From NCBI GenBank assembly GCA_905178155.1, contig CAJINV010000010.1, positions 1,571,182 to 1,635,181 of the forward strand: DNA of 64,000 nt, written 5' to 3'. A program made the translations under genes and the position numbers. The notes under the pieces were generated by a model that made no database searches, was not told where the DNA came from, and was given only the letters and a program-made list of their open reading frames with translations. This DNA is from Amoebophrya sp. A120. Taxonomy: Eukaryota; Protista; Dinoflagellata. Positions within the stretch are counted from its first letter, which is position 1. Every line of letters begins with the position of its first letter. Below, one piece after another: positions 521 through 64,000 of the stretch.

Positions 521-3500
521 ATGTCCCCCCCAGCAGCGCAATCCTGCGCTCCCGCAACCACCACCTGGTGGGATCCGCCCAACTGGAAAACGGACCTGCG
601 ACGCCTGATTCAAAGTTTGGTTAGCGATGGCTGCCTCGAGAACAAGACCGACTCCCCAGCAGCAACTGTATTCGTCGAGTCTACCGTGGTCAATTTCGCA
701 ACGCACTTGACGAACTACTCGTTCGCCAACCGGCTGCAATTTGCGTTCGAATTTTTCGCCGATAAGGAGATCGACCTTCTGGGAACAAACCACACCCAGT
801 TTTCCACCCAATTTCTCTCGCGGCTTTTTTACTGGTGCTTCGAAATGGACGAGGCCGAAAAAATGGCTTTGGCAGATCCAGATGGGAAAAATAACGGAGC
901 AGCTGGAACGCAAAATAAACCCGACGACACGCCACAGCGCCTGCGGGATCAAGATGAAGACTTTGAGATGCTGGATGTGAAAGAGCAGGCGGCCATGGTG
1001 GATGAAGATTTCGAATTGGTAGCGATTTTTATAAAAAGGGTTGGAGACCATGATTACCAGGCTGGTGGTTCATCTAGCACGACCATGCAAGAGACGTCCT
1101 CCGCTCTGCCTGGGGGCCATCATCATCATCAAGAAAAAGAACTCGGCGAACTAAACGGGAGTCGCTTCCACGTGTTTCGTATCGTCATTTTCGTTCTGGC
1201 GAAGCTGGCAAAGACGGGGCCAGCGCCGTTTGCCGCCCTCGCGGTCAAACTCCTAGACGTGTACCTGCAGTCTGCGAGCTCAGACTTCCGGAAGGAATTT
1301 CTGTCGATGATGCTTCCGCTGAGAGCGCTGACAGATGAAAAGCTGGAACAAATCTTCGTAAAAGCGCCCCCAAAACTGCAGCAATTTATCCTCACAACTT
1401 GCCTGAAATTGTGCCGGGAAACGAAGACCGCGGTGACAGGACGAGATCATTCTTGTTCTTCTGGACAAAAGACAACGACGAAAGCTGCAGTACTAGACGA
1501 AAAGTCTTCGAGAAAGAACGCGGAAACAAGAACCAACCGGAGCAGGTTTCTGTACGAATTTATCTACCAAAAGAAGCTGATTTCCGACCCGGTGAAGGAT
1601 GTCTTTCCGCTGTGTTGCGTAGTTCCAGAGGAAAGCGAAACAAAATCGAAACCGGAAATGGAAACACAAATTGCGAAACTAACGCCCTGGCTCGAGCGGT
1701 TCTACCCGTGTTTATTAGTGGAAAGGAAAAACGACTGCGCGTTGGGAGACTCGGCGGGAAACCCCTGGTGGCCGGAGAACTGCAGGCCGAAGAGCTGTCT
1801 GTTACCACATGAAGCTTTTGCTCTCAAGGCGGGGAGCGAACAATTATCGGCGGGTCAGAACTACAAAAACGACGGTGCTGCTGGTGGAACAAATCCACTT
1901 CGTGCAGCATCTTCGGCTTTAGCTGGTCGAAAATCTAAGCAGGAGCTGGCGTCTCTCCCCTCCTGGACGCATTTTGGGGACATTTACTGCTTTTTGTTGG
2001 AAAAGATGTTCGCTTCTTTCGGCCAGGATAAAGTAGCACTCGGTTACTGGTACAAATTTTGGGAACAGCACCTGCTTCCCAACGTTCCGAGAATGCACGG
2101 TTTTGACCGCAAATCGGCGTGGACAGTGCGGATTTACGAATTACTGGTGAAGTACAAACCGATGGTGTTTTCCAAAGCGATTCTGCAAGCCACTAACGCC
2201 GCTGTCAATGCGACGCACTGGGTGCGCCACAGTGCGCAACACGGTTGTCAGGGGTGCCACTGGGCTTGGTTTCTGGTGCCGGTGTTGCCGCAGACGATGG
2301 TATTTTGGAAAAGATCTTTAACGACGTTCCAAATCATTACTTAGCGCATATAGCACATTCTTTTGTTGATGGCGATTCCAGAATGAAAAAATAAATGGCT
2401 CGCGAAAATAGATGCACGCTGTTGAGCCGTACTTCTAGATGTTGCCTCTACAACCTGAGTCGTGCAAGATGAGTCCATGTGCAGTTGCTTGAAAAAAAAT
2501 AGAGTTGCATACATACAGGTCGCCCACTGGATCGGTACCTTGCCGGTGATCGAAAATTCGGTCGTGCCGTTTATGGAAGCGTCAGGTTTGAAATCGACAA
2601 AGTTGAAATAATTTGCCATGCGCAAAATGGATGCCAGTTGGACCCCAGTTTCCAAGTGGCGCATGACAAATTTTGGCTGTGCCTAAATCCAGTTTGTAAT
2701 GCTGTTTAGGTACAAAAGATTGACTCTTACTTCTGCAGCTCGAGCTCTAACCCTAAACAGGCTCACAATCGGCCTCACTTGCCTGCTCTGCAACACACGT
2801 ATTTCGCGCCATGCATTTTATGCATGGCAAATCATTTCAACTTTGTCGATTTCAATCCTGACACTCCCATACCGTTTTTGGAGAACTTCGAAACGATGGG
2901 ACAAGAACGCGCAGAAGCAGGTGGAGGTGACTCAGGCAGCATGATAAAGGAACCCTCCACAGATGATGACGCTGATCTCCCGCCAGACCTGAACCTGGAG
3001 CACTCTCTGCAACTCGCCGAAGTCATCGCGACCCTGTTCAACTACGGGGTGGATTTACGGAAAAACGCATCCAAATCCGGCATCAAAAAGGTGATGGAGT
3101 GTTGCGAGCAAGCGCTCGACAAGATCACAGAAACACTCCGCGAAGGACAAGATGAACAGCAGCAACCTGGTGCTGGCACTGGGTCCTCTAGTTGTAGTAC
3201 CTCCGACCTTCTCGAGGAGCAGTATGGCCGCGTTCTCAAATGTTACATTCTCAACTGTTGCATGATTTGTCATACAAAATTGCCATATGCAACCGCACGA
3301 CCAAGCGGCTCCGCATGAGAAATCTCCGAAGGGCTAAACAGCATGGAAATCTGTGCCAAGCTTGTGATGCTAGAGTTGCAAGGTCCTCCCTTTCACTTTC
3401 GCTTTTCTTGCATCACAAATTCATGTAACGGTTGAGAATGTAACAGTTGGGAACTCCATAAGCAGCTGTGGGCGTTTTTCCTCGCCACTTACAACGCCGA

Positions 3501-6500
3501 CCCCGGGTTCACTATGCAAGAAAAAAATTGTGTAAGTGTAACGTCCCTGTAATGCAGAACATGCAACAGAGTTACATCTGTTATGCCAGAAAGCCACGAG
3601 GCCTCTTTTCATGTGTGTTTTCCCTTGCAAGCAATGCATGACAGGTTTTCTCTGTCACGTAGAGCAAACTTGTGATGCTGTTAGCCAAAGGCAACGAAAG
3701 TTACACTAGCACAATTTGTTTCTTGGATATTCACGCACGGCCCTCTACCCTGCATCGAATACGACTTTGCTGAACTGTTGCGGCGACCTGTGGAGCTCAG
3801 GCAGAGGCGGGGGGGAAGAACTCCGAAGACTTCTGGCGGGAAAGGCAAAGGTGGTAAAAAGAAGGGCAAAGGCAAGAAGCGCGGACGAGGTGGCTCTTCG
3901 CCCCAAACCCGAGGACAACATCTAACCCCAATTATTTCCCGCAACAGCCAAATCTTTTCAAACGTGAAGGACTACATCCACAAGCACAAGTTGAAAATCC
4001 AGGAAATTGCGCAGACAAAGTTCTTACCAAATGCAAAAATGTCTGGGTCTGGAACGAAGGATGCAACTTGTGATGCTGAATTTCGATTCTACAAAAATCT
4101 GTATTGCGTGAACAGCAAAAGAGGTCCAGCTTTTGCCACGGCGAGAGGGCATTTCTCATACGGTATAGGCATCAGGAAGCCCTCACAAAATCTGTGATGC
4201 TAGAGCATGCGTCACAGACTTCAGGAGTCACGCAAAGCGTGCATGACAAACCTTGCATTCTTCCAGACCCAGACACTTTTGCATTTGATAGTTCTACGGG
4301 CTTGAGCAGATTGCACGAAAGCTGGACAAGGAGGAAAACGAATTTTGGCGACAGTTTCTGGTGGAAAAGCGAAAGCAGGCGCAGCAGGAAAACAACAGCT
4401 TGGTTGGGAACTTTGATTCAAAAGTCACGAGAGATCAGCTCCGTCTTTCCTTCCTTTTCCAATACATCCACATGGTGACGAACTTTGACTTCAAAAACAG
4501 CAAATCCGCAAAGAATCCCTACGGCCCGCCGATGCAGCAAAACAGGCCGAAGAAGAGCTATTTCCCGAAAAAATCTTCGAATTTCAAGGAGTTGCAGTTT
4601 TGCTTGGTCAAGAAGTGGGATCAGCTGCGGCACATGTTTATGCTCAAATCCATTTTGCGAATTCGAAAAGCGCTGGCCGTTCCTGGGGATAATGGTATGT
4701 CAGCTGTAGTACCTGGCGAAGATGCGTTACTCCAGCACATCCTCCCGGAGGTTTTACTAGCGGCACTTACGACAACGGCGACTGGTGGATCCAATGCAGC
4801 AACTACCAGCGGCGCTGGCATTCCCGCGAAGGCTGCGACTCTGTCAGAAATTATCGCCCCTGACCAGCAGGCAGAGCTGGTCGAGAAGTTGATTTTCGGG
4901 AAGAACGGCACGACCTCGTTGTTTATCACAGAGCAAGAGAAAGATATTCAGGAGTTGATTTTTGACGCGCGAAGGAAGGCGATCAAAAAAGATTTTCGCA
5001 GTAGCAGCATCTACGCATCGCCAAGCGGAAGTTCCGGCGCCCTTCCCTTCTCCTTCGCGATGTGCTTGGAGTTTTTGAAATTCGATGAGAAAAAAGGAAA
5101 GATGTCGGACAAGATCGTTCTGCCAAGCAACAAATTTGCCGGCATAGCCGATATCCGGAACAAAGTCTACAAAATGCTGGAAAATTACGCAGAGACCGGA
5201 CGGGAAGCGCTGTGTTTGTATCTGGCGAATTTGGTGAAAGCGCAGCTCAAGTGGGAAGTCCTTCACCCGGCGGAAGCGAGGGAACAGCTGGGAGCGATGA
5301 TGATGTTACAGGGAAAAAATATTGAAGATCGCGATACCATTCCGGAATTTTTTCAACCCTTTTTCCAAGACCCGAAACTCCGTCCGATCACCAGGCGAAT
5401 CGCGAAAAACATTTTCCAAACGGGAGGCAACTCGCAGTTTTCGTCCTCTCCCTACGAAGAGCACTTGAACGTGAGGAAACTGGTTTTGGATAGAGAATAC
5501 AGAGACAACAAAGCGAGCAACGCGCTCAGCCTGGACATGTGTTGCAGTCCCCAGAACGACATTTCCTCCGACCACGACACGAATCTCATAGCGTTATTGC
5601 GGGACTTGACGGCGCAAGGGAATCCGAACGATACGTCCTCTGTTTATCGCTTCAAATTCTCCGATATCAAATGTAAAAATGTCTGGGTCTGGAAGAATGC
5701 AACTTGTGATGCTGCATTTGGATTCCAGAAAAATCTGTATTGCATGAGTACCAAAAGGAATGTAATTTTTGCAACGCGGAGAGGGCATTCGTCATGCGGA
5801 ATAGGCATCAAGAAGCTCTCAAAAAATCTGTGATGCTAGGGCATGCATCACAGACGTCAGGGCTCATGCAAAACGTGCATGACAAGTGTCAGAATCTTCC
5901 AGACCCAGACATTTTTACATTTGATATCCGATCCGTCGACCGTCGGGAGCTCTGTCGGTCCCTACAAGACGCCACCCGGGCCGGGTGGGAAGCTGTTGGA
6001 GAGGTTTCTCGACTTTGAGATGGAGATTTTAACAGACCTGGTGGAAATGGCGAAAGCTAGTTTGGAAGTGAGTATGGGAGGCGATATGTTAAAAAAGCCA
6101 CTTAATCCGGTCGAGGAACAAGACGAGACGCGCACTGCCGCTGTGCGACAACGTGCGTGCCTGCCCAGTTCATATTATTTTTGAATCATGGTTGGCGCAG
6201 AGCCCCGCGGGGCTCACGGCCACCGAGACCACCACGCGTTTCTTGTTAGGCAGGAATGAACGCAAGGCCAGCAACCTCGGGCGCGCGGGGACTGCTCGGG
6301 CCAATTTTCATCCTTTTGTTTTTATTTGTTGCTTGGCGTGGGCCTAGCGACTGTGGCCTGACCCAGGCCCTCCTCCCCAAGAATCGACGCGCAGCGTGTG
6401 CTTTGGGCCGGGCCGCCGGAGCTCGGCAGCGGCGCATGGCATGCGCATTGCGCTGCGGAGGGGACCTAGCCCGGTGCAGTGCCGACCGTCTAACCTTGTC

Positions 6501-9500
6501 AGTATAGTCGCATTAGGGAGCCGGGGCCCGACGCGAACCCGGCACCCAGCTGCCCTGTTGTCGCACGCGTTCGGCGAGTCGGTATTGACAAGGCGCCCGG
6601 CCGCGTTACGGAGCGCGGCTGCATGCTCCGTTTGCGTTTGGTATGTGGACATAGATATGTGTGAGCTTGTCTTGCCACCATGTGAATTGCTCTAGTGGCC
6701 GTCGTTTATATGTTCTCTTCCGCCCTCTTTGCCGGGGGCGTAGAGCCTTATTTCCAAATGGGGCGCCACCGTGTATTAAATCCCACCTGGTAACAGCGGT
6801 AGGAAAGTAGTGAGGCCGGGATCGGGCGTGAACCGCGCCTGCGTCTGCACGTGCACAGAGCCCATTTTGCGGCGTTTGAGGTGCCCCGTCGGGCTCTAAG
6901 CGGCACAACCTAAAGCTGCAGCGCACTCGTTTCCGCTGGCTATCGTGAGTATTTCCCGATAGCTATCGTAATGGCGATGGTACCGGAATAAGTGAGTGTG
7001 CGTCCATAGTGAGTATGGGAGCAGGCGATATGTTAAAAAAACCACTTACTCCGGTCGAGGAACAAGACGAGTCTGGTTCTCCTCTAGCGAAACGGATTCG
7101 AATTCGGACCAGCCCGGGGGCAGGGACCACAAATGCTGATGCTGGAACCACTGCGACAATGGAAGACCAGGTGATGGGAGGTGTTGATCCCAGAAGCCCA
7201 GCTTCAGGTGGCTCAGTTCTTGCTTCTTATCCTCTCGACGAAAACACCCCGCTGATCTCAATTTTGCTCGCGTCAGCATCACGATCACCCCCTTCTGGTA
7301 CGAAAACCTCCAACACAGCAGCAGCCTCAACCTCTTCACCAGCATCCTTATTCCAAGTTTCGGAAAGTGCGAAAACCAATTTGAAAGTCGCCGCAAGAAT
7401 GGCGCGCAACGAGAAAAACGCGAAGGAGAATTCGGATGCTGAAGCTGCATCGGGTAACAAAGTAGCGATGTCTGATTTGGAGGAGAAATTGGCAGGTTCA
7501 CTGTTTGTGGAGGTGGACTGCTTTGATGATCTCAGTGGTGGTACAACAGCTGGTGCAGCTGCGGGGGCGGCCACGAGAGTTGTTACATCAAAAAGAAACA
7601 AGAACGTCAAAGCTCCTTCCTCACCAGCTGAGCAGGTGGATGACGAGGACGGGGAATTGCTCTTGCTAAAAGACGCGAAGTGGCGTTTTGCGAAGATCGT
7701 TACGTGCTTGAAACTATCAAATGCAAATATGTCTGGGTCTGGAAGGATGCAACTTGTGATGCTGCATCTGGATTCTACAAAAATCTGTATTGCATAAACA
7801 GCAAAAGAGGTTCAGTTTGTGCCACGGCGAGAGGGCATTTCTCATGCGGTTTAGGTATCAGGAGGCCCTCACAAGAGCTGTGATGCTAGGGCATGCATCA
7901 CAGACGTCAGGAGTCATGCAAAATGTGCATGGCAAACCTTGCATCCTTCCAGACCCAGACATTTTTGCATTTGATAGAAACGGTTAACGGAGGTAGTCGA
8001 CGGACAGAAAAACGGGCTTCTCTTCTTCCATCCGAAGACGACGTGGAAAAGGAGAATCGTTTTCTTGGATGTCGTGAATCCTACAAGTACAACGGCCGAC
8101 GGCACTTCAACATCTAGAAGTACTTCACCCACGAGAACGCCGAACAACCCCATTCAACTCGCGGAATTCCTCACCCAATTGAACGCCTATACCATCGAGA
8201 TGCGGTCTCTTTACACGCAAGCGTTCCCATTTCAACACACGACGAATAAGAAATTCGAGCAGCCGATTCGGCAGCTGGATGAGGTTGAAAACTTGCTGAG
8301 CCAATTACTGACGAAGATGCTGAAGAAGATCCTCGCTATCGCGCCGGGCTTCGGGCAGTTTTGTGCGACTGAGGAGAATTATAACGCGGGCATTTTATTT
8401 CCTGCGACAGAAATGACAGAGCACGAGTATGACGCGCTCAGCTGTTACAATCTCAAACGTTAATACTTTAGAATATGGAAATCTGTGATGCAAGAGTGCA
8501 TGATCTAGCACACTCTCATAGGATTGCGCATGACAAGTTCCGGAGCTCCAAACCCCACTACAATCTGGCGAAATTTGTATTGCAGAAAATGAAACGCTCT
8601 GCGAGTCTGTCATGCTCATCACGCAAGACAAATCTCAGATTCTATTGTAACGCTTGAGATTGTCACGCCTGAGTGGGTTATAACGAGCTGTGTTTGTGGG
8701 AACTATTCATTTTCGTAACGGAGTTGCAGTGGCGGAGATTGGCGGCGTACTGCACGAAAGCTACGTCAGAAGATTTTTCTGCTGCCGGCGCCCGAGGTGG
8801 ACAAGGCTTCGACAGCAGTTATTCACCCGAGCTATTAGAGTTGGTGGCGCAAGCAAGACAAAACAACCAAGAACTTTCAAAAAACGGCTTCCAGCTCAAG
8901 TTCCAGGACGAGTTTCTCTTCGACGATTCTGTGAACAATATTTCCACCAGCAAGACCACGACCCAACTGAAAGCGCTCACCGCCGGAATGGCATCTTGTA
9001 TCCACTTGCTCCACAGCATTGTGGATGGGACTTCCTGTAGAAACGAAACTCTGAAAAGAAAATCGGAGGCGAGCAGAAGCTACAACCCAATTTGGAACGT
9101 TTCTTTAAGCTCAACCACGGAGAGCAAGCAGATCCAGACCAACCTCCAGACCTTCTTCACCCGCATGCTGACAAACCTTGGCACGCAAGAACCGATGCTG
9201 GGACCGCACGCGAGCCACGAAGTGGCAGCTATGGGTAGTAGTAGCACCGACCGAAATTTGAAGCCGTTTCCGATCGCGGGAGCGTTTGTAAATGTGTTGC
9301 TACGCTTCGCGGAGATACTTGCTACAACGCCATCACCAGGCACGAACTCCTCTAGTGTAGTTTCTGCGACACGACCAGCAGCAGGAAAGAAAGAGAAAGT
9401 AGATTCGTCTTCTGCCTCCACCGGAACTGTTCTGATTCAAATCGCGACACAGTTTCTTTTCAAAATGTTCACCCTCACCATCCCCCCCGCCGGGCCGAAT

Positions 9501-12500
9501 ACGGCGACTCTCTGGCCGGATGAAAAAGAGGAGCTGAAGGAAGCGAGCAGCGGAAGCAGGAAGATGAACCTGGGATCAGGTAATTCTCAGCCGGATGAGT
9601 ACGCGAAGAATTATTGGCGGAGCGTCCGAAGCAATTGCTGGGCCTGCAGGATGTCGACGTTTGCGGTTTTGCACGCGAGTTTGCGGGACATGGGGCTTGT
9701 TCTAGGTGGAACTATAGAGGATAACTCGGGTACTACTGGCGGGCGCACGACCACAACGGCTGGAACTGCAAACGACGTCGCACAAGAACTGCCGCTATTT
9801 AACGAGCGGTATTTCCTCGCAATGCTTGAATCCGCGGAAACCGAGCAGATCGAATTAATCCGGCAACTGCAAGATCTCCAGCCTGTGGACGTGAAAGATC
9901 CGGAATCGAGGATCGAACGGGTGGTAAAAACGCTGGAAGACGGCTTCTACAGAATGTTGACATCATATCCTATGTAAAAACGTCCCCACCCCATAGTCAA
10001 GATGGGGGATTGGCTAGACAAATCCACAAGTTTTGGCTGTCTTGCATGACAGATTTGGACTCATAGCGTAGTGCTGTTTGAGCTAGCTCAGCAGCATCAC
10101 AGACCTAGCATATCATGCTGATTGGAGCATGACAAATTGCAAAACACGACTGGAAAATGCTTCTCATGGGGCTCCGCATGAGAAACAATTTCAGCAGGCA
10201 GATTTGCAATACAACTATGGTGTGGGGACGTTTTTACATAGGATACATCAACACCCTTCCTGCTCCAGTATCTCCCGAAGCCACAGTTGCTGCTACCACT
10301 GTGCTACCAAACCTGGTTTGCGCAAGTTGTGAAAGTTTTGAAGATATCAAATGTAAAAATGTCTGGGTCTGGAAGAGTCATGCTGTTTCTGCATAACACA
10401 GAAGGTCTGGCATGGAAGCTCTAGCATGGAAGCTCTAGCATCACAGGTTTCGAGAAGCTTCCGCAATGCCGAACCCGCGTGACAAATCCCCCACTTTGGT
10501 GGCAGAAAGTGAGCAGCTTTTGCTGCCTATGCATCAGAGATTTTTGTGTGCTCTGAAATGCGCATGACAAGTTGCTTTGTTCCATACCCAGACATTTTTG
10601 CATTTGGTAGAAGACCTACGCAGCGCGGAAAATCCAAAATGAGCCCGGCCCGGTATCAAAATGAAAAAAGCTCCCACCCCATATCAATGGGAAATCTGTG
10701 ATGCAGGATTTGTGTACACAAATGCGCGCTGTCTTGCAATACGGCATCGCAGCCAGATCCGCAGCCTACGGAGGGACGTTTGGGTCTAGGTGCTTAGCAT
10801 TACAAACGGCTGTGCTCCAGGCCCAACAGCATGCCAAATCGCTTCCATAATGGCGCGGAAGCCTCTGTGTTTGTCTTCTTGCAAGACACGCGCGATCTGT
10901 GGTCTCAAATCAGCAATACAAATTTCGGAAGCATCCTTTTTGATATGGGGAGCGGGGACTTTTCCTCTCAATACCCGGACAGAATTCGCTTCTACGATTG
11001 GCTTTGGAACGAAACAGAGAAACTGCTGAAGATTGGGTTTCAGGCCCATTTGATGAGCTTTAGCGGGTATTGCAGGAGTAGAAACGTTCTGGTGCTGCAG
11101 GATGAACATCAAAGTCAGAGCCAGCAAGGACAACGAACAACTACCGAAAAAGGACAAAACGCGCAGTACTTTTCCCTGACGGAGGTAGAGGCATATGCAA
11201 AACAGCTAGCCGAACCGCTGACGGAGTTACTCCAGCTGCATTTGAAACTTTTCCGAGAAGATATCGCGAAACGGGATTCCGTTGCGAAGCACCATTTCAT
11301 GGAAATTGCAAAGAAATGGCTGCGGCTCGCGAGCGACTGGGAAGAGGGAATTCTGCTGTCCTCCGAAGGGACTGCGCGGAGTTGCCTGCATGCGCTTGCG
11401 GTTTTGAACTCTACTACTTGCAGGGGAAATACTGCGCAGGAGGACCAGCACCAGCAAGCTTCGCCGCTGAAACAGTTCTACGATAAGGAGCTTTACAACC
11501 TGCGCAGACTCGTGATCAAAACTGCGATGGAAATCCAGCTCCCCGTGATACAGCACCAGGACGGTCTTGCGGCGACGAAGAAGTACGTTTGGCTGGTTGA
11601 CTCCACTTTGTACAAGCCCGCGGGCAATCTTATCGTCGATGTGGACTCCTTCGAAAAGCCAAGGGGGATTGAGTCGTTAAACCTGTTGCCCGGGGATGAA
11701 AAAGAGTTCGAAAGACTGCGGAAGCTGTACGTGGAGAGACTTATGGAGTGTATAGAAGAGGACGAGAAGATAATGAAAACGGGACAGCCTACTTCCAACG
11801 GCGGAGGCTTTGTCGGTCGTTCTGACGATGAAAGCGGAAAAATGCACCTCTCCGAGGACTCCAATGGACCTGCATCCTTATCCCCGATCGACGACAACAT
11901 GGGTGTGATTGGTACAACTTCTGCCAACGATAAAGCTGCTGGAGAAAAACCTTCTTCCTTCCTGCGAGATCTCCTGTCCGCGGCCCACCGGAAGAGATTC
12001 GCGGACCGGAGCGAGTATTTGAAAAACTTTTTAGACAAGTTAACGCGGCAACTGCAGGTGTTCCAAAAACCGGACAAGACAACCCCGCTTCTCCCTCTCG
12101 CCGAACAGGCGCGGCTATCTGCGAAACAGCGGACCGAACTGTTTTTGCAGGTTTTCATGGAGCGGAGCGGGTCCCAAGACTCGGAGGAGTTTAAGAAGCA
12201 GGTCTTTGACGCAGGAATTGCGCGGGACAATTCTTCCTCGTTCAGCACCACTACCGGCGGGGCGGCTGGAGTGAAGATGAAACTGCTGCCACTGCCTGAA
12301 GACACAACGATGAAGACTTGGAAAATACATGCCTCCATGTTTTTCAAACGATTCATGTTTTTGATCCGCAGCTCCGTAGGCGAAGGAAGACTGCAGCTGT
12401 TCCATGTATATTTAGACCACTTACTTATTTTCTTCAGGTGCTGGAGTTTCACTTTCAAATACATTTTTGTGGTGAAGATGCTCTCGCTCCAATTTATTTT

Positions 12501-15500
12501 CTATCTTGTTTTAGTGACAGGCATTTTATTTGCAGCTCCTAGAAGCAACAAGAGTGAAATATTCATGAGTAGCTCGTCCTCCTGAACGCGGGAACGAATG
12601 ATATAAAAAATCAAACACCGACCAGTCTCCTCCCCTCCTTCGCTTTATCGCCTTCGTTTTCAACGGCCTCGACTTCGTTTTTCCGGACCATGACCTGCCG
12701 AAACCCGATAGCGATGCGGAACTGCAACAGGAGTGGCACCTTAGACAAGCGTGGGAGCTGTTTCATTTGCTCAAATTGGAAATGGAGGCTGATGACGTGC
12801 CCTCTGGTTACCACGACCGATCTCTTCCTGCTTTCTTCGGTCCCTGGACCTTCAAACGGCTTTTCGAAGACAAATTGCAGCTGCCCAACCCCGCGGAGAA
12901 GCTGTTCTATGCCAGCATCCGGATCGCGAGAAGGAAGAAGCAAACCTTTCTGGAGAGGTCACTCCCTTTATGCAAGAAAAGAACTGTGTAGGTGTAACTC
13001 TGTGATGCGGAAAGTGCAAAACTGTTTTACAGTTGTCATGCTGGATGTGCGTCATGGGCTACTTTTATACGTGTTTCCACGTACTAGCTGCGCATGACAG
13101 GTTTTCCCTGTAATGCAAAACGAATTTGTGATGCTGCTCTTGTTCCTACGAAGTTACACTTCCATACACAGTTTTTTTCCTGGATACCCTTGGGACAGAG
13201 TGCACAACCAGAAGCAAGTAAAAACGCTGCGGGCGAAATTCCAGCTGCAGTCTGATTGGCTCAGACTCATTGCGAGTGACTACTTACCGGATTACGTTCT
13301 GGAGATGGAGGAGCGGAAGCGGTTCAATGGTATCGAAAGGAAGAATCCCCCCTCCCTATATCAAAACGGAATTTCTGATGCTGGATTTGTGTACACAAAT
13401 CAGCTTTGTATTGCAGAGAGGCATTGCCATTGCGGCCAGATCTCCAGGCTTAGTAGGGGCGTACGGGTCTAGTAGTAGTTCAACATGGCAAACGGCTCCC
13501 CTTTCGGCCCAACAGCATGACAAATCGCTTCCACAATACATAGGGCGGAAGCTTCTGCCCTTGTCTTCTTGCATAGACAAAAGTGATTTGTGGCCTCAAA
13601 TCAGCAACGCAAAAAATTTTCGGAGACATACCGTTTCAATATGGGGAGGGGGGATTTTTCCTTACGATAAATAGCGGAGCGAAATTTCGAAGTTTGCTGG
13701 TGAATTCTTCTTCTCCCACCGCGGCTCCTCAGCAGGGTAGCGTCGTTGCGGCAGACCAAATCATGGACCTGCAGATGATTGAGGATGAATTTATGCTACA
13801 GAACTACGCCCAGCTGACGCAGTTTGCCCTGGAAAGGGACGAGACGAAGTTCCGGGTTTATTTGCGCAGAGCAACATACACACACAGGGCCACAAATCTT
13901 CTGAGCAAGGTCTTCCCGGTGGACATTTTCCGGTACGGAAGGCGCGAAACGTCTGGGCATGGGCTGCTTCCTCGCACGGAAGTAAGAACTCCGGCGGACA
14001 AAGTATGGCTTACTCAGATGTTACAATCTCAAATCGGTTACCATAGAATTTGAAACTTGTGTTGCATGATGAGCATGACAGACTCGCAGAGTGATGCTCC
14101 ACTTTCTGCAATACAAATTTCGCCAGATTGTAGCGGGGTTTGGGACTCCGGAACTTGTCATGCGCAATCCTATGAGAGTGGGCTAGAACATGCACTCTTG
14201 CATCACAGATTTCCGTATTCTATTGTAACGTTTGAGATTGTAACAGCTGAGCAGGTTATACAAAGAAACCACTTGCTGCGATGAGGTTTTCGAAAAGCTG
14301 CTGAAACTGGATCCAAGTCTGATCGCGCTGGCAGAAAACATTTTCGACCACAACACCTTTAGGACGCACATCACGGCACTGTGTACCGGACCAGCCGCGA
14401 GTGGTAATCCAGAGGACGAGTTGTCGCAAATGGGTATCAGTGCTGGCGTGATACAAAGAACTCAAAAAATGTCGAAGAGAGTCAAGCAGTTCCGTTTTGG
14501 CACATTGGATGAAATATCCAAGAAAAAACAACCATATTACCCATCCAATTTGTCATGCAAAACCTACATCATTTTCAGGATTTGTCATGCAAAAAATGGA
14601 TGGGGATGGTTGGTTTATTTTTTGTCCAGGATAAGACATAACCCTTCTCGATTTCGCCCGGGTGAGGCGAGAGGACCTGTTTTCAAAGTGGCTAGATCTC
14701 GCTCAGGACCGGAAAAAGGTGAATTGGGATACTGTGCTGTTCCCCGAAGATTTGGACCACGCGCTGGGCAAGTTTGGCTTTCGCTCCATTTTCCTGGACG
14801 AATTCGATAGTAAGAATGCCGCATCATCTATTACTGGTGCGCTAGGGGGCAACACAACGACAACGACCTCCGCCCCAGCAGGAACATCTTCAAGTCTACC
14901 AGCAGCAGAGACCCCGGAAGCCCCTACCAACGCGATCGCCCTGCCGCTGAGACAGCTGCTTCGGCTGTCGGGGCCGGCGGCCCGGATCTTTGCGAAAGAA
15001 GCGAAGTTTTGGGTCTTATCCGATGCGGCGGACTTGCAGTTTCGGAGTGCAAAGATGCAGCAATTCGTGCAGAATCCAAGCACGAGCTTTGTCCAGGTTT
15101 TGGAATTGTTACAGGAATTAGCTGTGGTTCCGGATAAAAAGGAAGAGATGTTGAGCAGCAGCTACACAGGTGGAACGAGCAAGGGTAAGGGGAAGAATGG
15201 TGACCAAGGCAATGCAGCTTTCCAAGTAGCCCCAATGCAAAACATCCCTGGTGCCGCGACCGCAGCGAACAGCATGATCACGCCGAACAGCGGCTCTGAC
15301 CCAGAGAGCTCCGACAAGGATAAAAACGACGAAGCGAAGCAGGCCGCGAACGCGACGCTACTCGAATCGCTCGTCATATGGAAGCGTCAGGATTGAAATC
15401 GTCAAAGTTGAAATGATTCCTCATGCAGGAATTGCAAGGCATGAAGTGCCTCTCTTGCAGGGATGGGAAGTGAGGCCGACTGTCAGCCTGTTTGGGGTCT

Positions 15501-37003: not shown

Positions 37004-37157
37004 TATCCACAGTAAATTTCCCGTACACGTACAAATGCAGTCTCTGCATGACAAAACTTGCCTTCAGTCCTAGTCTAGCATGACAAGTTGGACACTGCAA
37101 GTTGGCGAAATTTGTCATGCATTTTGTACATCATTTACGGAAAATTTACATTGCATA
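37004..37157. mobile_element. TIR introner, family F (duplicate of 27889)
   Basis: Same sequence and DR ggaac as 27889-28042. Confidence 0.9.
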
Positions 37158-51900: not shown

Positions 51901-54900
51901 ACTTCATCCTCCGGATCCTCTGCTCCAGCTTCCAAAGCGGCGAAAATTCGCCGCCAGTCGCCCCCACCTGGAGGTGGAAACGTCGGGTTTATTTCAACCG
52001 TGCAACCAAGGACACTGAACTTATCCGGACAACAGGTTGGGGGCTTCACTGCCGCGACGACCTCTCTGTCGTCTGCAAAACAATCCGCTGCCGTAACGGT
52101 CGCGAGTTCTCCGAACTACATGATGCTACACCAAGGTGGTGGAGCAGGGGGTCCTGGTCCTCTTGTTCCTGCCACGACGATGCACCACCATCTTCAGACA
52201 AGCGCTGGAGGAGGTCTTCCTGGTCCAGGTCCTCAAACTGCGACCACAAGAACCCCCGCTGGGCCGAGGGTTTTGTCTGTGAATCCACCGCTTGCGCGAA
52301 GTCGGGGCGGTGGCGGTGTGGAGCTGAAACATGAAACTCACTTTCAAGCGACCATACTAGCACCTGATCGTGGTCGCGGTTCTTCCACTGGACGACCACA
52401 AGCTGTATCCTCGATCCCTCCATCCGGTACGGCGACCTCCAAGGACGTCGGAAGTGGAGGGGTACTGACTGGCTTGTCCAACCGCCTGTCACCCCTAGCC
52501 AGTGGAGGTTCTGCAATGGGTGGTCGTGGTGCGGCCGTTGTTACATCTACCACTGCAAACGTCATCGACGTCGCATGTGACGAAGTTGTGGAAGTACAGG
52601 CGCAAGCTGAAGGGGAAGATCATGATTGCGACTGCAGTAGTGGAAAACAATCTGAGAATCTTCATCCGACTCCGGAAATAGTGGCTGCACAACAAAATGC
52701 TGACCATGAAGGAAGCAATGAAGCCCAGGGAGCGGCTATTGAGCAGCGCGTCAATGATCCATCTGCCAATAGCACAACTCGGAATGATCGACGCAGAAGA
52801 ACTTCCAGCTCCTACCAGAGCGAGAATAGTGGTGCAACTGGAAGCGAAGATGTGCATCATGCTGCTGAAACCCACCTTTTGACAGAAAAGCTGCAGCCAC
52901 TGGTAAATTTTCTGCACGCGAACCCGAATTCCTTCACTCTGACCTCCCTCGACTCCGGCACCCTCGTCGAGATCAATGAGCAAGTCTATGAAGTCGGCGA
53001 GCTGCTGGGCCAGGGAGCGTACGGGGCGGTGTTTGCAGCTGCATCGTCGTGCTCTAAGACGACGAAGAATTCCGCATCTTCTGCTGCTTCCACATCATCT
53101 CCTTCTCCCGAATTACGGAGGTTGCAACAGCAAACCCACTCGCAGCTATTTCCGTATGCGGTCAAAGAGATTAAGGCGGGAAACGGTCTGGGGCTACCGG
53201 ACATGACAGTGAAAAAGTTGTTTTATGAACTCCACTGTCTAGCGTCCGTTCCAAAGCACTTAGCGGGAAAGTCGGCGCCGGGGCTGGTCGGGGCAACATG
53301 TTGGCGATTGAGTACTACTTATATATTACGAACAACTTTGTTTCATCATCTAATTGTTGCACTAGGGTGATTTTTCTTTCTCAAGAAGAAGTGCTATCCA
53401 TGCATGCGCGGTTCAAAGTTCTCCACGCTAGCGCTAATATAATCATACTCAACCCTTCATTGCGACTTCTATCTTGATATCACAAAAATCTCAGCTCCGG
53501 ACTCCGCTATCATTCGTTTCGTGATGACCCGCGTAAATGGCCAGCCCCTGGTGGAATTTTTGCAAGAGGACAAATGTGCTGCCCGTGATTCGTCCGCTGT
53601 CTCGGCTTGTTCCACAGCATCTCCTGCCCCAAGGCCGAGCAGCAACAGGAACAAAGAGTCGAATTCGAATAGAATGCCCGACGTGTCTTCTGCAGTCTTT
53701 TTCGTAGCGACGCTTTTATACCAAATCGCAGAGGTACAGGAGATTCTGGGCGAAGAGTGTATCCACCGCGATGTGAATACAAGGAACATTTTGGTGTCTG
53801 GTGTAGCAGGTTCTTGTGCAGGTAGTGGAACAGCAGCGTTAACACTGTCAAATTTGTCTTGCGGCCCTGGGTTGATGAAGAATCTTGAAGCTGCGCAAAA
53901 ATCCCCGCTATCTTCTTGTTCGAACACTGCATTCTCATCTTCGTCTCACACAACACGACGGAATAGCCCGGAGCTCCTGCTGCAAATGAGCGGCGCTCCT
54001 AGTCGTCGTGCAGGGGCTTTTCCCGCTGCTTCAGAAATTGATCTGACCAATCTACCAGACGCTGACGTTGACCCTAGCTACACCAGCAGTCCAGACGGGT
54101 TGTTTTCCGAGGCAAGCCAGTTGTACCAAACCCCACAGTTGCGGTCGGATCAGGATGAAAAAGAGGAGAGCAACCTTACCCCAACCTCCGCTGTAGCTGC
54201 AACGCGGAGGAGGAGACGCAACTCAGGCTACGCTTCTTGTTCTAGCGCGAAAACGAGAACGAGTCGAGAAGAGCCCGGGAGTTCAGTGAGGACCGTCAAG
54301 CAGCCCCGAAGTTCGAGGAAACTCGGTGGGTATACCCACGACGAGGAGCTAGATCCAACGGACACGGCAGATCAACTACATGCTCGTGAGGACCAGCAAC
54401 GAGTAGAGGAAGACAAATTATTGCAACAAAACTACCTCCAATTTTCCATTGTAGACTATGGGTCCGCGACCAGTGCCAGAAAATTCGCTGCAGACAGCGG
54501 CTGGGCGAAGTTACCCCCAACGGGGGAAGCGAAGCAATGGTGCCCTTTTGCCTGGAAATTGTTGTACGAATGGAACGATTTGCAGAAGAAGGGAGTGGAG
54601 AGTTGGCTGCGACAGAACATCAACAACGTCATGGCTGCCCATCACGCACCTGCAAGCCACGGCAGGGTAGGAACGGTGCCACGAACTAGCATGGTAAACG
54701 ATTTCTCGTCAGCTGCGGGGGGCTGCGGCAAACCCAATGATCTGGAAAGTAGCCGGCGTGGTTTGAACATTTACAGGAAGCAGCTGGATATCTACGCCTA
54801 TGGCGTTCTCAAATGTTACATCCTCAACTGTTACATGATTTGCCATGCAAAACCACAATCAGAATCGATGCGATCAAGCTGCTTAGCATGACAAATTTGC

Positions 54901-57900
54901 AAAGCGCTAAACAGCACCGAAATCTGTGCGGAATTTGTAATGCTAGAGGCGCAACCTTCCCCCTTTGACTTTTGCTATTCTTGCATTGCAAATTCGTGTA
55001 ACAGTTGAGAATGTAACAGTTGAGAATCCCATAACGCCCTCGCAGTGGTTGCAATGGAGGTATTTGATCGGATTGTGCCAGTCCGAGTGCTTTCGGACGA
55101 AGTGGCCGCGCCTTTATCAAATGTAAAAATGTCTGGGTCTGAAATATTGCGAGATTTGTCATGCTTGTCTGGCATGACAAAAAAGTTTGTGATGCGTGTC
55201 CAAGAAGAGACCCTTTTTCCTGTCATGCAAAAACGCAGTTTCTCATGCGAAAAACGCAACACAAAGAAGCGCAGATATTTCTCATGCTTGGCTGTGCATT
55301 ACAGAGCATTCACCATTCCCAACACAGCATTACAAGTTTCCAGACCCAGACATTTTTACATTTGATAGCCTTCTTCGCAGTACAACTACCCAAAAGTAGC
55401 TGCTGCACACAGTGGGACGAGGACCACGAAGGGCGGATCTACGAATATTGGCCCTTCACCACAGCTGACTACTAGCACCAGCAAGTCAAGTTTTTTTCCA
55501 AGCGGAGCAGGAAAGGGGAAGGCAAGAACTGCTGGAGGTGGAGGAAACCGCAATGCTAATGCTTACTCGTGCGCCAGTCCGTTGAATCCGTATCCGGGGT
55601 CGTTGCTGCAAGGGGGTACTACCGCGTTTCATCAGGGAAGAAATGCCACAACTCACGCGCCACCACCGTCGACAAACATGATTTCTGCGTCTACTGCGAA
55701 TGCTGGTCATTTACTCCAACAACTCCAGAGGACCAATAGTCTCAACACGACACAAGCTACGACGACTGCCTCCAATAATCGTGGGAAAGAACAAAGAACT
55801 GGTCCCCTGGTCTGGGACCTGCAACTCACGACCGACCATCTTCATCAGAACTCGACGATTGTACCCGATAGTGATGCTCCTGGTTTAGAGGTGGCCGCCG
55901 GTGAAGCTGCTGCGCCAGAAGATCAACGCTCTATGAAGATCTTCCCTGACGACCACAAATACAAGAACGCTTTATCATCGAACAACCGCCTCTCCACCAG
56001 CTCCTGCGCGACCCAGAACACGGTATCAACCTCGGTTCCCAGCAGCAGCAAAAACCGCAGGGCCAGCACCTCCACCGCGGCGACGGCCTCGAATGTCTCG
56101 CTACTTTCCGGGCTTACCGCCCCAACTGCTGCTGAGTCCTCGCATTCATCGTTTGCTGCATCGGCCTCAAAAAATCAATACGGAAATCGACGTTCCGGCG
56201 AATTTGTTGTAGAGCCACATGCTGACAAGAATTATCAGCAGCAAAAAGCCTTCCACAATCTGCAAAAGTCCTGGTCCACTTACGAGCAAATCGCGAAGCA
56301 GGGCACGGACAAGCTTTTCGCGTATTCCAAAGCCTGCGTCGAAGAGCCCGGGAAGGTGTCTATGCATTGCAAAAGTATCGTGTTAGTAGTAAAGTAATAG
56401 TAATTGCATTACAAATTAGCTCAGCATGACAAACGGAACTTGTCATGCGGCTTTAGCTTGAAAAAGAAATTTGTCTTGCATGGCTGCGATTAGTACGAGC
56501 GCACTGCTTTTGCACAGGATAGTGCTTCGGCAGTCGCAACTTTGGCAGGAGTTGATGCAATTTCGGATGCCGGAGAGATTGGAAAAGGGGTTGCATGCAT
56601 TGGAAAGAGATTTGGGGGGAGTGATTGCGGTGTTTAAGAAGGAAACCAGCAGGCTGGAAAGTAGTGCAAGTTGTTCGTCTTCATCTTCCTCTTCCGCCAA
56701 GGGTTCCTCCTCTTCTCACGCTCGCCAAACGCAAGAAATAAGAACTGGCAACAACAAGCCCAACGCAGTAGTTCCGGGGCAACGGCAACCTGCTTTGTAC
56801 CAGAAAACTAACGTCGTGCAGCCGCTCGGACAGTTTTTGCAGCAGAACCGAGTCGGTACAACTGCTGGTTGTGGACCTTCACCTTCTTCGTTGCTGTTTC
56901 AGCAAAACTCTGCTTCGCACTCTACTGCTGGTGAACAACAAGAGGGTGATCGCCAGCAAGCTGGAACTGACCCTAACGAAACGGAAAGCTCGAGCCGAGA
57001 ACAGATAGTACCGGGCGGCGCTAGTGTTAGTGCTAGAATCACAGAGGAGCTACAGAACATCGCCGATTTTTTCGCCTTGATTCGCTCCATGATGGTCTCC
57101 GCAAACACGACCTGGAGTGACGTGAAGGTAAAGGCTGCTGAAATCATTCTTTTGGTTGAACAATGTGAAGCACAAGAAACAACAAGTATCTTCGCAGCTG
57201 CGGGTGAAGATGAGGAACAGGAGCAGGAGTCGCAGTCAATAAAAAACAGCGGCGACGAGGGCGTGGATTTTGTCGAAGGTGAAGCGAGAGAGTATGATTG
57301 CAAAGCACAATCACACCCACCTTCGGCTTCAGCCAGTCGAGATCAGGGAAACCAAACTCCAACACGAACACCTTCATCGGCTGCAAATGAAGCTGTCCTC
57401 GCTTCCGCAGCTACAGCTCCGCAGGAGGGCACGACCTGCGTTTTTGCAGCGAAGAAGGAACTTCACTTCACACCCGATACTACGATCCAAGAACCGCAAA
57501 AACAGAACTTGCAAGTAGAAATACTTGATCCGACAGCACTCCAAGAAGGAAGCACCACGGCGAACGAGGAGAGCGACGCTGGCAATGCAACTACGATTCC
57601 AACCCGCCTTCCTGCGGTAATGAAGCAGGTCGTCGGAGAGGCGCGTGGCTCAACAACTTCCACCCCACCATCAACAGCCGTCTGCTACACCCTTGACGAG
57701 ATGGCTGCAGCTGCACGAGGGAAAACGCCAGCAGATGGTGCATCTGGAATTCTCACTGCGGAAGTACATGAGCAGCGCCAGCACTCCTCCTCCCAGCAGT
57801 CCTCACACGAGCCGCATCAAGCAGTGGAAAGAAGTTTTAGTGGCAGCTCCAGTGCTCACGACCAAATACTGAACACTTCCCACGGGTCGTCGCTGAGTTC

Positions 57901-58507: not shown

Positions 58508-58589
58508 GGCAATGCGCTTATGCGACAGTAGATGAAAAGATACAACGCATGCGCATCATTGAACAAAAGCGCAAGCTTTTGACTTCTGC

Positions 58590-60847: not shown

Positions 60848-62435
60848 ATGGCAACAAACTGGTCCCAGAAACAGCAAGGTCGACCACCGCAGGTTGATTG
60901 CCTGTTGCAGTGCTTGCTTTTAAGAACACATGACGGGAGCGGGTCCACAAAGGATGCAACTAAAGTTGCGGGCTGCAACAAAAGCACCACAGAGGCAGAG
61001 CATGCACACAACGCAACAAGCCACAACCCGCTCGGAGGTGCCCGCCGTGTCGGGGAGAGGCCCACTACCCCTCCGTCATCAACCATTCATCCTCCCGCCC
61101 AGCAACCGCTGACAAAAAGATTTCTACCGCCACTTGTTTTCGAAGCCTTATTCGACACACCCCCAACTGGCGCTTTTACGGCCGGGCAGGATTATCTTGC
61201 CACAAGAACAAATCAACACACTCCGCTGTCGCGGCTAAAGCGGGCCTATATCACCGAAGTCGCGGGCCCCGCAGGTGCGGGAAAGTCCCAGCTTTTGATG
61301 CAGTTGGCGGTGGAGCACTGTAAAAGCCAATTTTCACGGCTTGAGCCGCAAGAACGTGGCCACGACGACGACCCCAGTTGTGCACAACTACAAAAAACTG
61401 CAGTGTCTTGTGTCCTGGTTCTGTCCACGAACCGTGCCGCGTGGGTGGCATATGCAATGTAAATTTCCCGTACATGTACAAAATGCATGACAAATTTCGC
61501 TAACTTGCAGCGTCCAAGCAACTTGTCATGCTAGACTAGGATTGAAGGCAAGTTTTGTCATGCAGAGACTGCATTTGTACGTGTACGGGAAATTTCCTGT
61601 GGATATGGCAAGATTGCGCAGCATAGTCGGCAGAGAAAGCGACCACCTTCTCCAGCACATCCGGGTCCAGCAGGTGAATTCTTTGGAGGATGTCCTCGGA
61701 GTGCTGGCGAAGCTTGTGGAGCTTCAAGATGTTGGTGAAGATGAAATACAACAGAGCGCTGAGAATAGTACAGGAAGCCATGAAATAATACCTGCTGGAA
61801 ACCACATTCCAACCACGACATCAGGCACTGCCGTCGCGTCATCAACCGTGGTAGACGAAACCACAGGAAGCGTGAATCAGTTCCCGTCATCAAAGTCAAG
61901 CGCTACGCGGCTCTCTACCGAGCAAGAAGAAGCAACTTCAAATCTGAAGAAGCCAGAGGAGAAGCAAGCCAGCGTCGAAACAAGTAAGCCGACCCGTCAA
62001 CCGCGAAATTCTCGGCTGCAGAACAGAACGCAGATTCATCTTCATCTCGGTCTCTTCCTTCTCGACGGTCTGACTATGCTGATCAGCGGTGCGGACTTCG
62101 CGAATTTCAAGCACCGGGAAAGATCCTTACAGCGCCTAATCCGCAACCTCCGGTGCATCAAGTGCCCGGTGTTCTACACGGCGCATTTAGCGCAGGATTG
62201 GAAGCAGAACTGTTTGAAGTTATCTTTGGGGAGAACCTGGACCGAGCAAGCGTGCCACCAAAGGGTTTTCCTGCAAAGGTTACACAACGTAGACATGGCA
62301 GGACGACAAGAGAATGCAGGTGAATTGGAACCAGACGCGAGTGTAGTGCTCGCCACGCTGAGCGAGGAGCAGGGGGAAGGCGTGTTGTTGGGAATTGGAA
62401 AACGCGGTGTGAAGTTGTTAAATTCGCTGACGTGA
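60848..62435 (+). CDS. RAD51/RecA-family recombinase paralog (RAD51D/XRCC3-like), ~475 aa
   Basis: Exons 60848-61450 + 61611-62435. ITEVAGPAGAGKSQLLMQLA (Walker A in RAD51-family context), LFLLDGL (Walker B), LSLGRTW...RVFL (paralog C-terminal motif). Confidence 0.85.
61451..61605. mobile_element. TIR introner, family F (inverted relative to 27889)
   Basis: tatgcaatgtaaatttcccgtaca...tgtacgggaaatttcctgtggata; DR tggca. Confidence 0.94.
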
Positions 62436-63357: not shown

Positions 63358-64000
63358 ATGCACGGCTTCGATTCGCTTGTCGGCGGGGGGATTCTCCTCC
63401 TCTTGCTCGAGCTGTTGATGATCGCGGTCGTATCAAATGCAAATATGTATGGGTCTGGGAGGATGCAACTTGTCATGCTAAATCTGAATCATGTAAAAAT
63501 TGCGCTGCATGATTTTGATTGCCCAAAGCAAAATAAGCTGTCCACTTTTGACCTAGTCGAGAGGCAGTTTCTTATGCAGAATAAGCATGATAGAATTAGA
63601 ACTCTCACAGAATCTGTTATGCTATGTCCTGCATACCAGACCTCATGGATCATAGAAAACCTGCATGACAAACCTAGCACTCTTCCAGACCCAGACATAT
63701 ATGCATTTGATAGGTCGTCGCCTACAACAACGAGCTACGCACTGCAAATATGTCTGCGCCTGAAGCGGTCTGTTGTAGTAAACATGCAAAGGCACCACAT
63801 GATAAAACGCACGCGCTCTGTTTGCTAGGTGCAAGCGAACGTTCTGATGCGTGAGCATAGGCATAGCATAGGCTTCCTTGCAAAAGAAGAAGAAACTTGC
63901 AAAAGCCTTTGCGTGCATGCGAGAAGGCCTTCTGATGCGTGGTCGAAAAGATGCATCACAAACAAGGACAAAATTTCAGGACCAGACATGAAATTTTCAG
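63358..64000 (+). CDS. 5' end of a probable secreted/membrane protein (runs off the window)
   Basis: MHGFDSLVGGGILLLLLELLMIAV (signal-peptide-like), then introner, 18-nt exon 63718-63735 (VAYNNE), then a second introner. Confidence 0.6.
63431..63712. mobile_element. TIR introner, family A
   Basis: tatcaaatgcaaatatgtatgggtctgg...ccagacccagacatatatgcatttgata; DR ggtcg. Confidence 0.93.
63736..64000. mobile_element. A-related introner truncated by the window end
   Basis: tacgcactgcaaatatgtctgcgcctgaa ... ttcaggaccagacatg near the window end. Confidence 0.6.

What the first reader, a model, noticed from the sequence alone, without database searches (positions are those of the whole stretch)
2572..63712. 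One excision grammar (5-bp DR | TAT...TIR...ATA | 5-bp DR) shared by ~10 families of non-GT-AG intervening elements
Seen: at least 44 elements of 119-339 bp interrupt coding sequence. By hand count 32 have a perfect 5-bp direct repeat and 12 a degenerate one; nearly all begin TAT and end ATA; none has GT-AG ends. Deleting element plus one DR restored the frame at every junction I could follow. This includes conserved motifs (kinase DIYA|LAVV, esterase PSWYHYYN|YD, RAD51 paralog core), so the genes look functional and the elements must be removed precisely. Known: IR/DR-bearing non-canonical introner elements are described in Amoebophrya (Farhat et al. 2021), and as far as I recall their removal mechanism is unresolved. 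Inference: fixed termini and DR length across families with dissimilar TIRs imply one transposase lineage and one dedicated removal machinery that reads end structure rather than splice dinucleotides. This is the best candidate here for an uncharacterised system.
Basis: partly seen in the sequence, partly recalled or inferred. Interest (0 to 1): 0.9.

Follow-up and report, generated by a model that had tools for sequence, protein, structure and literature searches.

The report
Fixed cut rule for transposon introns
Dozens of small hairpin-ended mobile elements interrupt the genes of what is very likely a marine parasitic dinoflagellate, and where RNA covers them they are cut out one base before their TAT start and four bases after their ATA end, not at the usual GT-AG signals; the elements are already known, but this fixed rule seems unreported and likely shows how a modified splicing machine finds them.

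Summary
Observation confirmed: 47 TAT…ATA inverted-repeat elements of 119-339 bp, 32 with a perfect 5-bp direct repeat. They match the introner elements of Amoebophrya A120 (Farhat 2021), so the class is known. RNA contigs from one sample remove element+5 nt at 14 of 14 element joints, and DNA contigs keep the elements. Mismatched repeats fix the cut: only one register fits all 14 joints, intron = N-TAT…ATA-NNNN, and two joints have no ambiguity. Introns whose repeats match at only 1-2 of 5 bases obey it too, so the repeat is not the signal. In 173 elements from another assembly, 42 fall in the nine published commonest A120 motifs under this register, against 0-14 under other registers. G+1, AG and G+5 are not enriched. 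Best guess: a relaxed U2-type spliceosome reading the element ends (0.5); rival: a Euglena-like route without the spliceosome (0.35). One element can slide to GT-AG. Earlier scan notes report similar hairpin introns in other dinoflagellates (unchecked).

The parts
2572..2871 (+). element (all element coordinates are the TAT…ATA span; intron in the fitted register = start-1 to end+4); repeat 5/5
   Evidence: no RNA joint shown
3223..3460 (+). element, repeat 5/5
3513..3729 (+). element, repeat 5/5
4025..4290 (+). element beginning TAC, repeat 5/5
5665..5926 (+). element, repeat 5/5
7715..7976 (+). element, repeat 5/5
8428..8682 (+). element, repeat 5/5
9966..10245 (+). element, repeat 5/5
10345..10609 (+). 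element ending GTA, repeat 5/5
10654..10973 (+). element, repeat 5/5
12969..13186 (+). element, repeat 5/5
13331..13669 (+). element, repeat 4/5
14004..14260 (+). element, repeat 5/5
14515..14633 (+). element, repeat 3/5; RNA joint 14513>14638 (offset 4 or more)
   Evidence: (X5 record 11)
15377..15687 (+). element, repeat 5/5; RNA piece ends at 15371
15902..16165 (+). element, repeat 5/5; opposite orientation to 16232 in the same gene
16232..16496 (+). element, repeat 5/5; RNA piece starts at 16496
20342..20611 (.). element, repeat 4/5; RNA piece ends at 20338; fits the register if the host gene is on + (favoured by codon score), not if on -
26491..26635 (+). element, repeat 5/5
27152..27304 (+). 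element, repeat 5/5; identical to 36267-36419
27889..28042 (+). element, repeat 5/5; identical to 37004-37157
30808..31043 (+). element, repeat 3/5; RNA piece starts at 31046 (offsets 2-5)
31627..31832 (+). element, repeat 3/5; RNA piece ends at 31623 (offsets 2-4)
32885..33099 (+). element found from RNA joint 32882>33103, repeat 3/5
33165..33425 (+). element, repeat 5/5; RNA joint 33159>33426
35425..35691 (.). element, repeat 5/5; host frame uncertain
36267..36419 (+). element in the duplicated block; RNA joint 36261>36420 (contigs likely come from the first copy)
37004..37157 (+). element in the duplicated block; RNA joint 36998>37158
37876..38427 (+). 552-nt GT…CC intron with only TA/TA in register; skipped and retained forms both in RNA contigs
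44509..44827 (+). element beginning TCC, repeat 5/5; RNA contigs stop at 44508 and restart at 44827
44889..45196 (+). element found from RNA joint 44885>45199, repeat 2/5
45232..45402 (+). element ending ATG, found from RNA joint 45230>45407, repeat 1/5
45444..45763 (+). element, repeat 3/5; unambiguous RNA joint 45442>45768 (offset 4 only)
45844..46101 (+). element, repeat 5/5; RNA joint 45838>46102
46399..46565 (+). element, repeat 4/5; RNA joint 46394>46567
46624..46886 (+). element, repeat 3/5; unambiguous RNA joint 46622>46891 (offset 4 only)
46915..47217 (+). element found from RNA joint 46912>47221, repeat 2/5, almost no predicted end stem
47279..47527 (+). canonical GT-AG intron in the same transcript
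47668..47880 (+). element, repeat 5/5; RNA joint 47662>47881
47928..48077 (+). element, repeat 5/5; RNA joint 47922>48078
51546..51697 (+). element, repeat 5/5
54799..55033 (+). element, repeat 5/5
55115..55367 (+). element, repeat 5/5
56361..56521 (+). element, repeat 3/5
61451..61605 (+). element, repeat 5/5
63431..63712 (.). element, repeat 5/5; can be slid to GT…AG on +; host strand uncertain

Best explanation
These are transposon-derived introns, very likely the Amoebophrya A120 introner elements, and where RNA covers them they are removed in one register, one base before TAT and four bases after ATA, most likely by a relaxed U2-type spliceosome that would read the element's own ends instead of GT and AG. 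Steps: (1) a non-autonomous DNA transposon with TAT…ATA ends inserts in either orientation and duplicates 5 bp (structure shown; transposase inferred, IS3EU/GingerRoot-like by its ends). (2) DNA keeps the element and RNA lacks element+5 nt (shown). (3) The 5' cut leaves four repeat bases in the exon, so the intron starts N-U-A-U; the 3' cut lies four bases past AUA; the mature junction is four bases of the left repeat plus one of the right (shown). (4) The repeat only makes removal scarless, it is not read (shown for repeats matching 1-2 of 5). (5) Because both ends are mirror images, either orientation offers the same signals (shown). (6) U+2/A+3 would stand in for the GU-A donor and the acceptor would be set by a ruler from AUA, through an end-binding adaptor replacing U1 (inferred, untested).
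For: Five further piece ends agree, and six introns sum exactly to a 499-nt contig gap. If cuts fell at random among offsets 0-5, the four informative elements defined before RNA was seen would share an offset with about 5% chance, about 1% with three piece ends added (hand arithmetic). Independent check: 42 of 173 oriented elements from another assembly fall in the nine commonest published A120 motifs under offset 4, against 0, 14, 8, 8, 0 for other offsets; the published nine sum to 20% and all have T at +2. For a spliceosome: the register puts the invariant T at +2 and A at +3; the nine commonest A25 motifs also have T at +2; a GT-AG intron lies in the same transcript; A120 has U2, U4, U5, U6 and 83 of 89 proteins, while U1 snRNA and snRNP27 were not found; a canonical-intron Amoebophrya has U1; loss of SNRNP27K goes with +4 U in yeasts (abstract); Fritillaria removes non-GT-AG transposon introns with the U2 spliceosome.
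Against: Nothing here tests the chemistry. In 173 elements there is no enrichment of G+1 (62, p=0.29), AG at the 3' end (21, p=0.10) or GT-AG (7, p=0.13); +5 is C in 123 and asymmetric elements do not put G+5 at the 5' end (22 vs 31), so U6-box pairing has no support (the sample is biased to one family by the search pattern). G at -1 is raised there (70 of 173, p=0.014 uncorrected) but not in the window (9 of 45). No +1/-1 pairing preference and no 5'/3' asymmetry or branch-point signal (detection favoured symmetric ends). The predicted hairpin would bury both splice sites in about 31 of 45 elements. TAT is fully explained as a transposon end; the register adds only about 1-in-6 odds. RNA evidence is contigs from one sample and one study, with RNA status a guess of the tool. 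Four introns were defined after seeing their joints. 20342 would break the register if its gene is on the minus strand.
Confidence: 0.5

Rival explanations
1. Same elements and same register, but removal is by a route without the spliceosome, as proposed for Euglena nonconventional introns: a nuclease measures from the paired UAU/AUA (1 nt on the 5' side, 4 nt on the 3' side), a ligase joins the exons, and the intron likely leaves as a circle or linear RNA.
For: +1, -1 and -2 carry almost no information (0.05, 0.03, 0.14 bits in 45; similar in 173). The logic mirrors the Euglena code N3-CDG…CHG-N5-6, whose introns leave as circles without lariats (review). The end trinucleotides are complementary in register in 41 of 45, and two of the four exceptions keep a G:U pair. 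Orientation does not matter.
Against: No candidate enzyme was found or searchable (no genome held). Several RNA-confirmed introns have no predicted end stem (14515, 32885, 44889, 45232, 46915: pairing probability 0.00-0.02). A tRNA-type bulge-helix-bulge is not formed: no exon-intron 4-bp helix beyond chance, and the recalled geometry is 1+6, not 1+4. The invariant T lands on +2 in both A120 and A25.
Confidence: 0.35
2. The elements are cut out of DNA, as ciliate internal eliminated sequences are, or by a transposase, and the RNA copies the joined DNA.
For: They have transposon ends, and TA-bounded DNA elimination exists in ciliates (recalled).
Against: DNA contigs run unbroken from exons into element ends at 11 junction sides (records 1-8), the window itself holds all elements, and no element+5 joint is among the 15 DNA joints shown (515 more were not shown).
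Confidence: 0.04
3. The joints are reverse-transcriptase skips across hairpins between direct repeats, not cellular splicing.
For: Hairpins flanked by direct repeats are the known setting for such skips (recalled); only cDNA-derived contigs were seen.
Against: Two joints have no shared bases at the cut; introns with 1-2 of 5 repeat matches and no predicted stem are also removed; single contigs run through ten introns; long frames exist only without the elements.
Confidence: 0.03
4. A divergent, undetected minor (U12-like) spliceosome does it: N-UAUCC resembles the recalled U12 donor R-UAUCC.
For: +5 is C in 123 of 173 and +6 C in 56 of 173; 14515 and 46915 read AT…AC in register.
Against: U11, U12, U4atac and U6atac were not found in A120; +5 is G in 26 of 45 in the window and +6 is mostly A.
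Confidence: 0.08

Closest known systems
Introner elements (IEs) of Amoebophrya sp. A120 (Farhat et al. 2021, PMC7789003)
   Same: TAT start, inverted and direct repeats (5-bp example in Fig. S19 legend), about 240-nt introns (238 here), many families, 17% of the genome (17.1% of this window), RNA-supported removal, one-direction gene clusters.
   Different: The paper calls the splice sites variable relative to the hairpin and finds no clear signature. Here one register fits all joints and explains its Table S4. Its figures were not visible to me.
Euglena nonconventional introns (Nomura et al. 2025, PMC12501133)
   Same: Complementary trinucleotides at fixed spacers from the two cuts, free terminal bases, direct repeats that blur the junction, MITE-like origin proposed.
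   Different: CDG/CHG with 3 and 5-6 nt spacers and a purine at exon +1; here TAT/ATA with 1 and 4 nt and no clear purine rule (26 of 45 purines). Circular excision is reported there and untested here.
Fritillaria borealis non-canonical introns (PMC13326754; review PMC11282704)
   Same: Transposon-derived introns with inverted repeats and duplications, mostly not GT-AG.
   Different: Preferred ends AG-AC and AG-AT, U1 conserved, U2AF duplicated, U2 spliceosome shown to be needed; here +1, -2, -1 look free and U1 was not found.
IS3EU/GingerRoot DNA transposons (PMC10045372)
   Same: TA…TA termini; integrase-type transposase, which fits the integrase-like ORFs reported in A120 family 38.
   Different: 6-bp duplication there, 5-bp here; no autonomous copy or transposase found here.

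Membership tests
Amoebophrya A120 introner elements | Terminal inverted repeat starting TAT, followed by less conserved bases and an A run | tested here: met
   45 of 47 start TAT; A at +12 to +14 in 35-39 of 45
Amoebophrya A120 introner elements | 3-5 nt direct repeat at the boundaries | tested here: met
   5 bp: 32 of 47 in the window; 273 of 380 in other loci found without using the repeat
Amoebophrya A120 introner elements | Repeated in families, no transposase inside | tested here: met
   8 multi-member groups; 119-339 bp; two long pairs in other loci hold no long ORF
Amoebophrya A120 introner elements | Absent from RNA, non GT-AG ends | tested here: met
   14 of 14 element joints; 0 of 45 GT-AG in register, 1 by sliding
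Amoebophrya A120 introner elements | Host genome is strain A120 | not testable with these tools
   No genome held; inferred from TAT ends, length and density
U2-type spliceosomal introns | GT (or GC) donor and AG acceptor | tested here: not met
   No enrichment of G+1 or AG; only U+2 is kept
U2-type spliceosomal introns | Branch-point motif near the 3' end | tested here: inconclusive
   No asymmetric motif; the shared internal motif is in both orientations; A at -7 is near invariant but is the transposon end
U2-type spliceosomal introns | Lariat intermediate; needs U2/U5/U6 | not testable with these tools
   Only contigs; the raw-read runs gave 3 and 2 reads
Euglena-type nonconventional introns | Complementary trinucleotides at fixed spacers from both cuts | tested here: met
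   TAT at +2..+4, ATA at -7..-5
Euglena-type nonconventional introns | CDG/CHG, spacers 3 and 5-6, purine at exon +1 | tested here: not met
   Different motif and spacers
Euglena-type nonconventional introns | Excised as full-length circles | not testable with these tools
   No back-joint among the rows shown; poly(A)-type contigs would not be expected to hold circles
Bulge-helix-bulge introns (tRNA endonuclease) | 4-bp exon-intron helix between two bulges | tested here: not met
   0.9-1.5 pairs of 4 at six offsets in 173 elements, chance level
IS3EU/GingerRoot transposons | TA…TA termini | tested here: met
IS3EU/GingerRoot transposons | 6-bp target duplication | tested here: not met
   0 perfect 6-bp against 273 perfect 5-bp in 380
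IS3EU/GingerRoot transposons | Cognate DDE transposase | tested here: inconclusive

The most novel reading that the evidence does not exclude
Amoebophrya A120 runs a second mRNA splicing system, without U1 and possibly without the spliceosome, whose whole code is N-UAU…AUA-NNNN, the ends of the transposon itself. It would be a convergent twin of the Euglena code in an alveolate, and it would let tens of thousands of insertions land in any codon, in either orientation, without a scar.
Probability: 0.35. Interest if true: 0.88.

Novelty: new variant of a known kind. Interest (0 to 1): 0.6.

Why it matters
The elements are in print, but how they are removed is open, and the original paper took the splice sites to be variable. 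A fixed register turns that question into exact predictions: where a lariat branch or circle junction must map, which bases to mutate in a reporter, and how to annotate tens of thousands of introns in this genome. It also shows that a 5-bp stagger plus a 1+4 cut gives scarless removal with no demand on the target sequence, which would explain how one transposon lineage filled about a sixth of a compact genome.

Tried and rejected
No genome is held, so genome-wide counts, snRNA and protein surveys were not possible. Including a DNA run crowded the RNA joints out of the table; only piece ends could be used there, and 7 joints were not shown. Elements at 2572-13331 and 51546-63712 have no shown RNA joint. 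A DNA-only register test (junction stops and codon score in 39 mismatched elements) did not separate offsets. The internal motif TGT[CG]ATGC (38 of 45 elements, 85 copies, 5 outside; 161 of 173 in other loci) was considered as a branch point and rejected for now: it occurs on both strands and about 40-50 nt from either end, like a transposase site. No element family match in viral contigs. No autonomous element found. Host-gene names were not confirmed. A term search of the Roy et al. preprint found no mention of Amoebophrya.
Full report
Observation. A scan for TAT…ATA pairs with a 5-bp direct repeat found 28 with a perfect repeat and inverted-repeat score of 10 or more, against none in five Markov-shuffled windows. 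Self-blast added four degenerate copies and RNA joints four more. The final list is 47 elements of 119-339 bp covering 17.1% of the window; 32 have a perfect repeat; 45 start TAT and 45 end ATA. Two are copies inside a 2.67-kb duplication. Repeat length is sharply five: 30 of 45 unique elements, none at 3, 4, 6, 7 or 8. There, 380 elements found without using the repeat gave 273 perfect 5-bp repeats, 1 at 4 bp and 0 at 6 bp.

Coding context. Removing element+5 gives + strand frames of 805, 1409, 1623, 679, 1466 and 476 residues, and 1196 residues over ten introns once RNA-found introns are added. Frame alone cannot tell +5 from +2 or +8 (38, 36 and 38 of 45). Members of one family lie in both orientations in the same genes. 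One element, 63431, can be slid to GT-AG.

RNA. Runs X5-X8 are contigs of one sample; the tool marks them RNA by guess. They skip a GT-AG intron and have little or no cover in two bins between genes, which fits RNA. One search showed 15 of 22 joints: 13 at elements, one GT-AG intron, one 552-nt GT…CC intron. One search added one element joint from piece coordinates. All 14 element joints skip element+5. A 499-nt stretch of one contig equals the genomic gap minus six elements+5 each, which covers four more. DNA contigs run from exons into element ends, so removal is at RNA level. The 2026 raw-read runs gave 3 and 2 partial reads and were not usable.

The register. With a perfect repeat the cut can slide; with a mismatched one the RNA shows which copy each base came from. 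Counting how many left-copy bases are kept, offset 4 is allowed by 14 of 14 joints, offsets 3 and 5 by 10 each, and joints 45442>45768 and 46622>46891 allow only 4. Piece ends at five more elements agree, assuming element+5; one of them, 20342, agrees only if its gene is on +, which codon score and an ATG favour (0.036 against -0.002). So the intron is N-TAT…ATA-NNNN. Four introns were defined after their joints were seen, but each shows TAT at +2 and ATA (once ATG) at -7 within a slide range of 2-4 places. Their repeats match at 3, 2, 1 and 2 of 5 bases, so the repeat is not the signal. Five RNA-confirmed introns have no predicted end stem, so a long hairpin may not be needed either. The one element in the 41.9-48.5 kb transcript that starts TCC is the one where contigs of X5 and X6 stop at 44508 and restart at 44827, as two alternative paths would cause (inference from contig ends).

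Independent check. Table S4 of Farhat 2021 lists nine commonest non-canonical motifs for A120; all have T second and they sum to 20%. Of 353 elements with at least 3 of 5 repeat matches in the other assembly, 173 could be oriented by an open coding frame. Under offset 4, 42 of 173 fall in those nine motifs; under offsets 0, 1, 2, 3, 5 the counts are 0, 14, 8, 8, 0. Aligner bias towards GT, AG and AC may shape the published list.

Mechanism. Insertion: shared end consensus, a shared internal motif on both strands near both ends and one repeat length point to one transposase lineage. TA…TA ends recall IS3EU/GingerRoot, which make 6-bp duplications, so membership is not claimed. Removal: the register places U at +2 and A at +3, as in spliceosomal donors; A25 also has T at +2; the spliceosome is nearly complete but U1 snRNA and snRNP27 were not found, while a canonical-intron strain has U1; Fritillaria is a precedent. 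Against this, G+1, AG, G+5 and +1/-1 pairing show no enrichment, and the code has the same form as Euglena's, whose introns leave as circles. I put 0.5 on a relaxed U2-type spliceosome with an end-reading adaptor, 0.35 on a route without it. Identity with the A120 elements is about 0.95 and the register about 0.9.

What is known. Farhat 2021 (PMC7789003): abstract, passages, sections 11 and 16, supplement passages and part 4 read; figures not visible, and Fig. 3 or S23 could show part of the offset (the legends say variable, and 1-5 nt from the splice sites). PMC12130899: passages, and 21 of 58 A120 rows of Dataset S2, which give mixed duplication lengths and no common register (two supplement files not searched). 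PMC12501133: abstract, discussion, passages. PMC11282704: section 6 and passages. PMC13326754: abstract, introduction, section 30. PMC10581693: abstract. PMC10045372, PMC12005148, PMC11453091, PMC9860276: passages. Roy preprint: term search only. Searches found no paper stating a fixed register or testing lariats in Amoebophrya; the library lacks most subscription papers. The yeast and U12 donor consensus, bulge-helix-bulge geometry and ciliate elimination are recalled, from no call.

Verdict. Real, and a known class. The new part is a fixed, repeat-independent cut rule that makes an open mechanism testable. Interest 0.6.

Noticed in passing
window 26700-29366 and 35815-38482: 2.67-kb duplication, 99.8% identical, carrying two elements; the second copy lacks the gene's 5' part. 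RNA contigs carry one differing base and loose ends that match the first copy.
   Followed up: partly
window 37876-38427 (and its copy near 28761): 552-nt GT…CC intron starting inside the last codon; skipping it removes the stop and extends the protein. Skipped and retained forms both occur.
   Followed up: partly
window 12406-12437: Candidate 32-nt GT-AG intron starting GTAT; an RNA piece ends exactly at 12405. More small introns likely join the 1409- and 1623-residue frames into one very large gene.
   Followed up: partly
window 47487, 28823, 37938: The elements' internal motif also lies inside the canonical intron and the 552-nt intron, which may be decayed elements.
   Followed up: no
window 6067-6120 and 7007-7070: Near-identical ~55-nt stretch at the end of one long frame and the start of the next, flanking a GC-rich 0.8-kb gap with uneven DNA depth; a duplication or assembly seam.
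   Followed up: no
window 38700-41700 and 58600-60800: GC-rich or repeat-like stretches without elements or clear + strand genes; possibly other mobile DNA.
   Followed up: no
L057 4001-4972 (same as L058 3058-4029): 972-bp element with the commonest family's ends and a perfect 5-bp repeat but no long ORF; a possible decayed larger copy.
   Followed up: partly
window 46891-46912 and 45199-45230: Micro-exons of about 22 and 32 nt between elements are spliced correctly.
   Followed up: no
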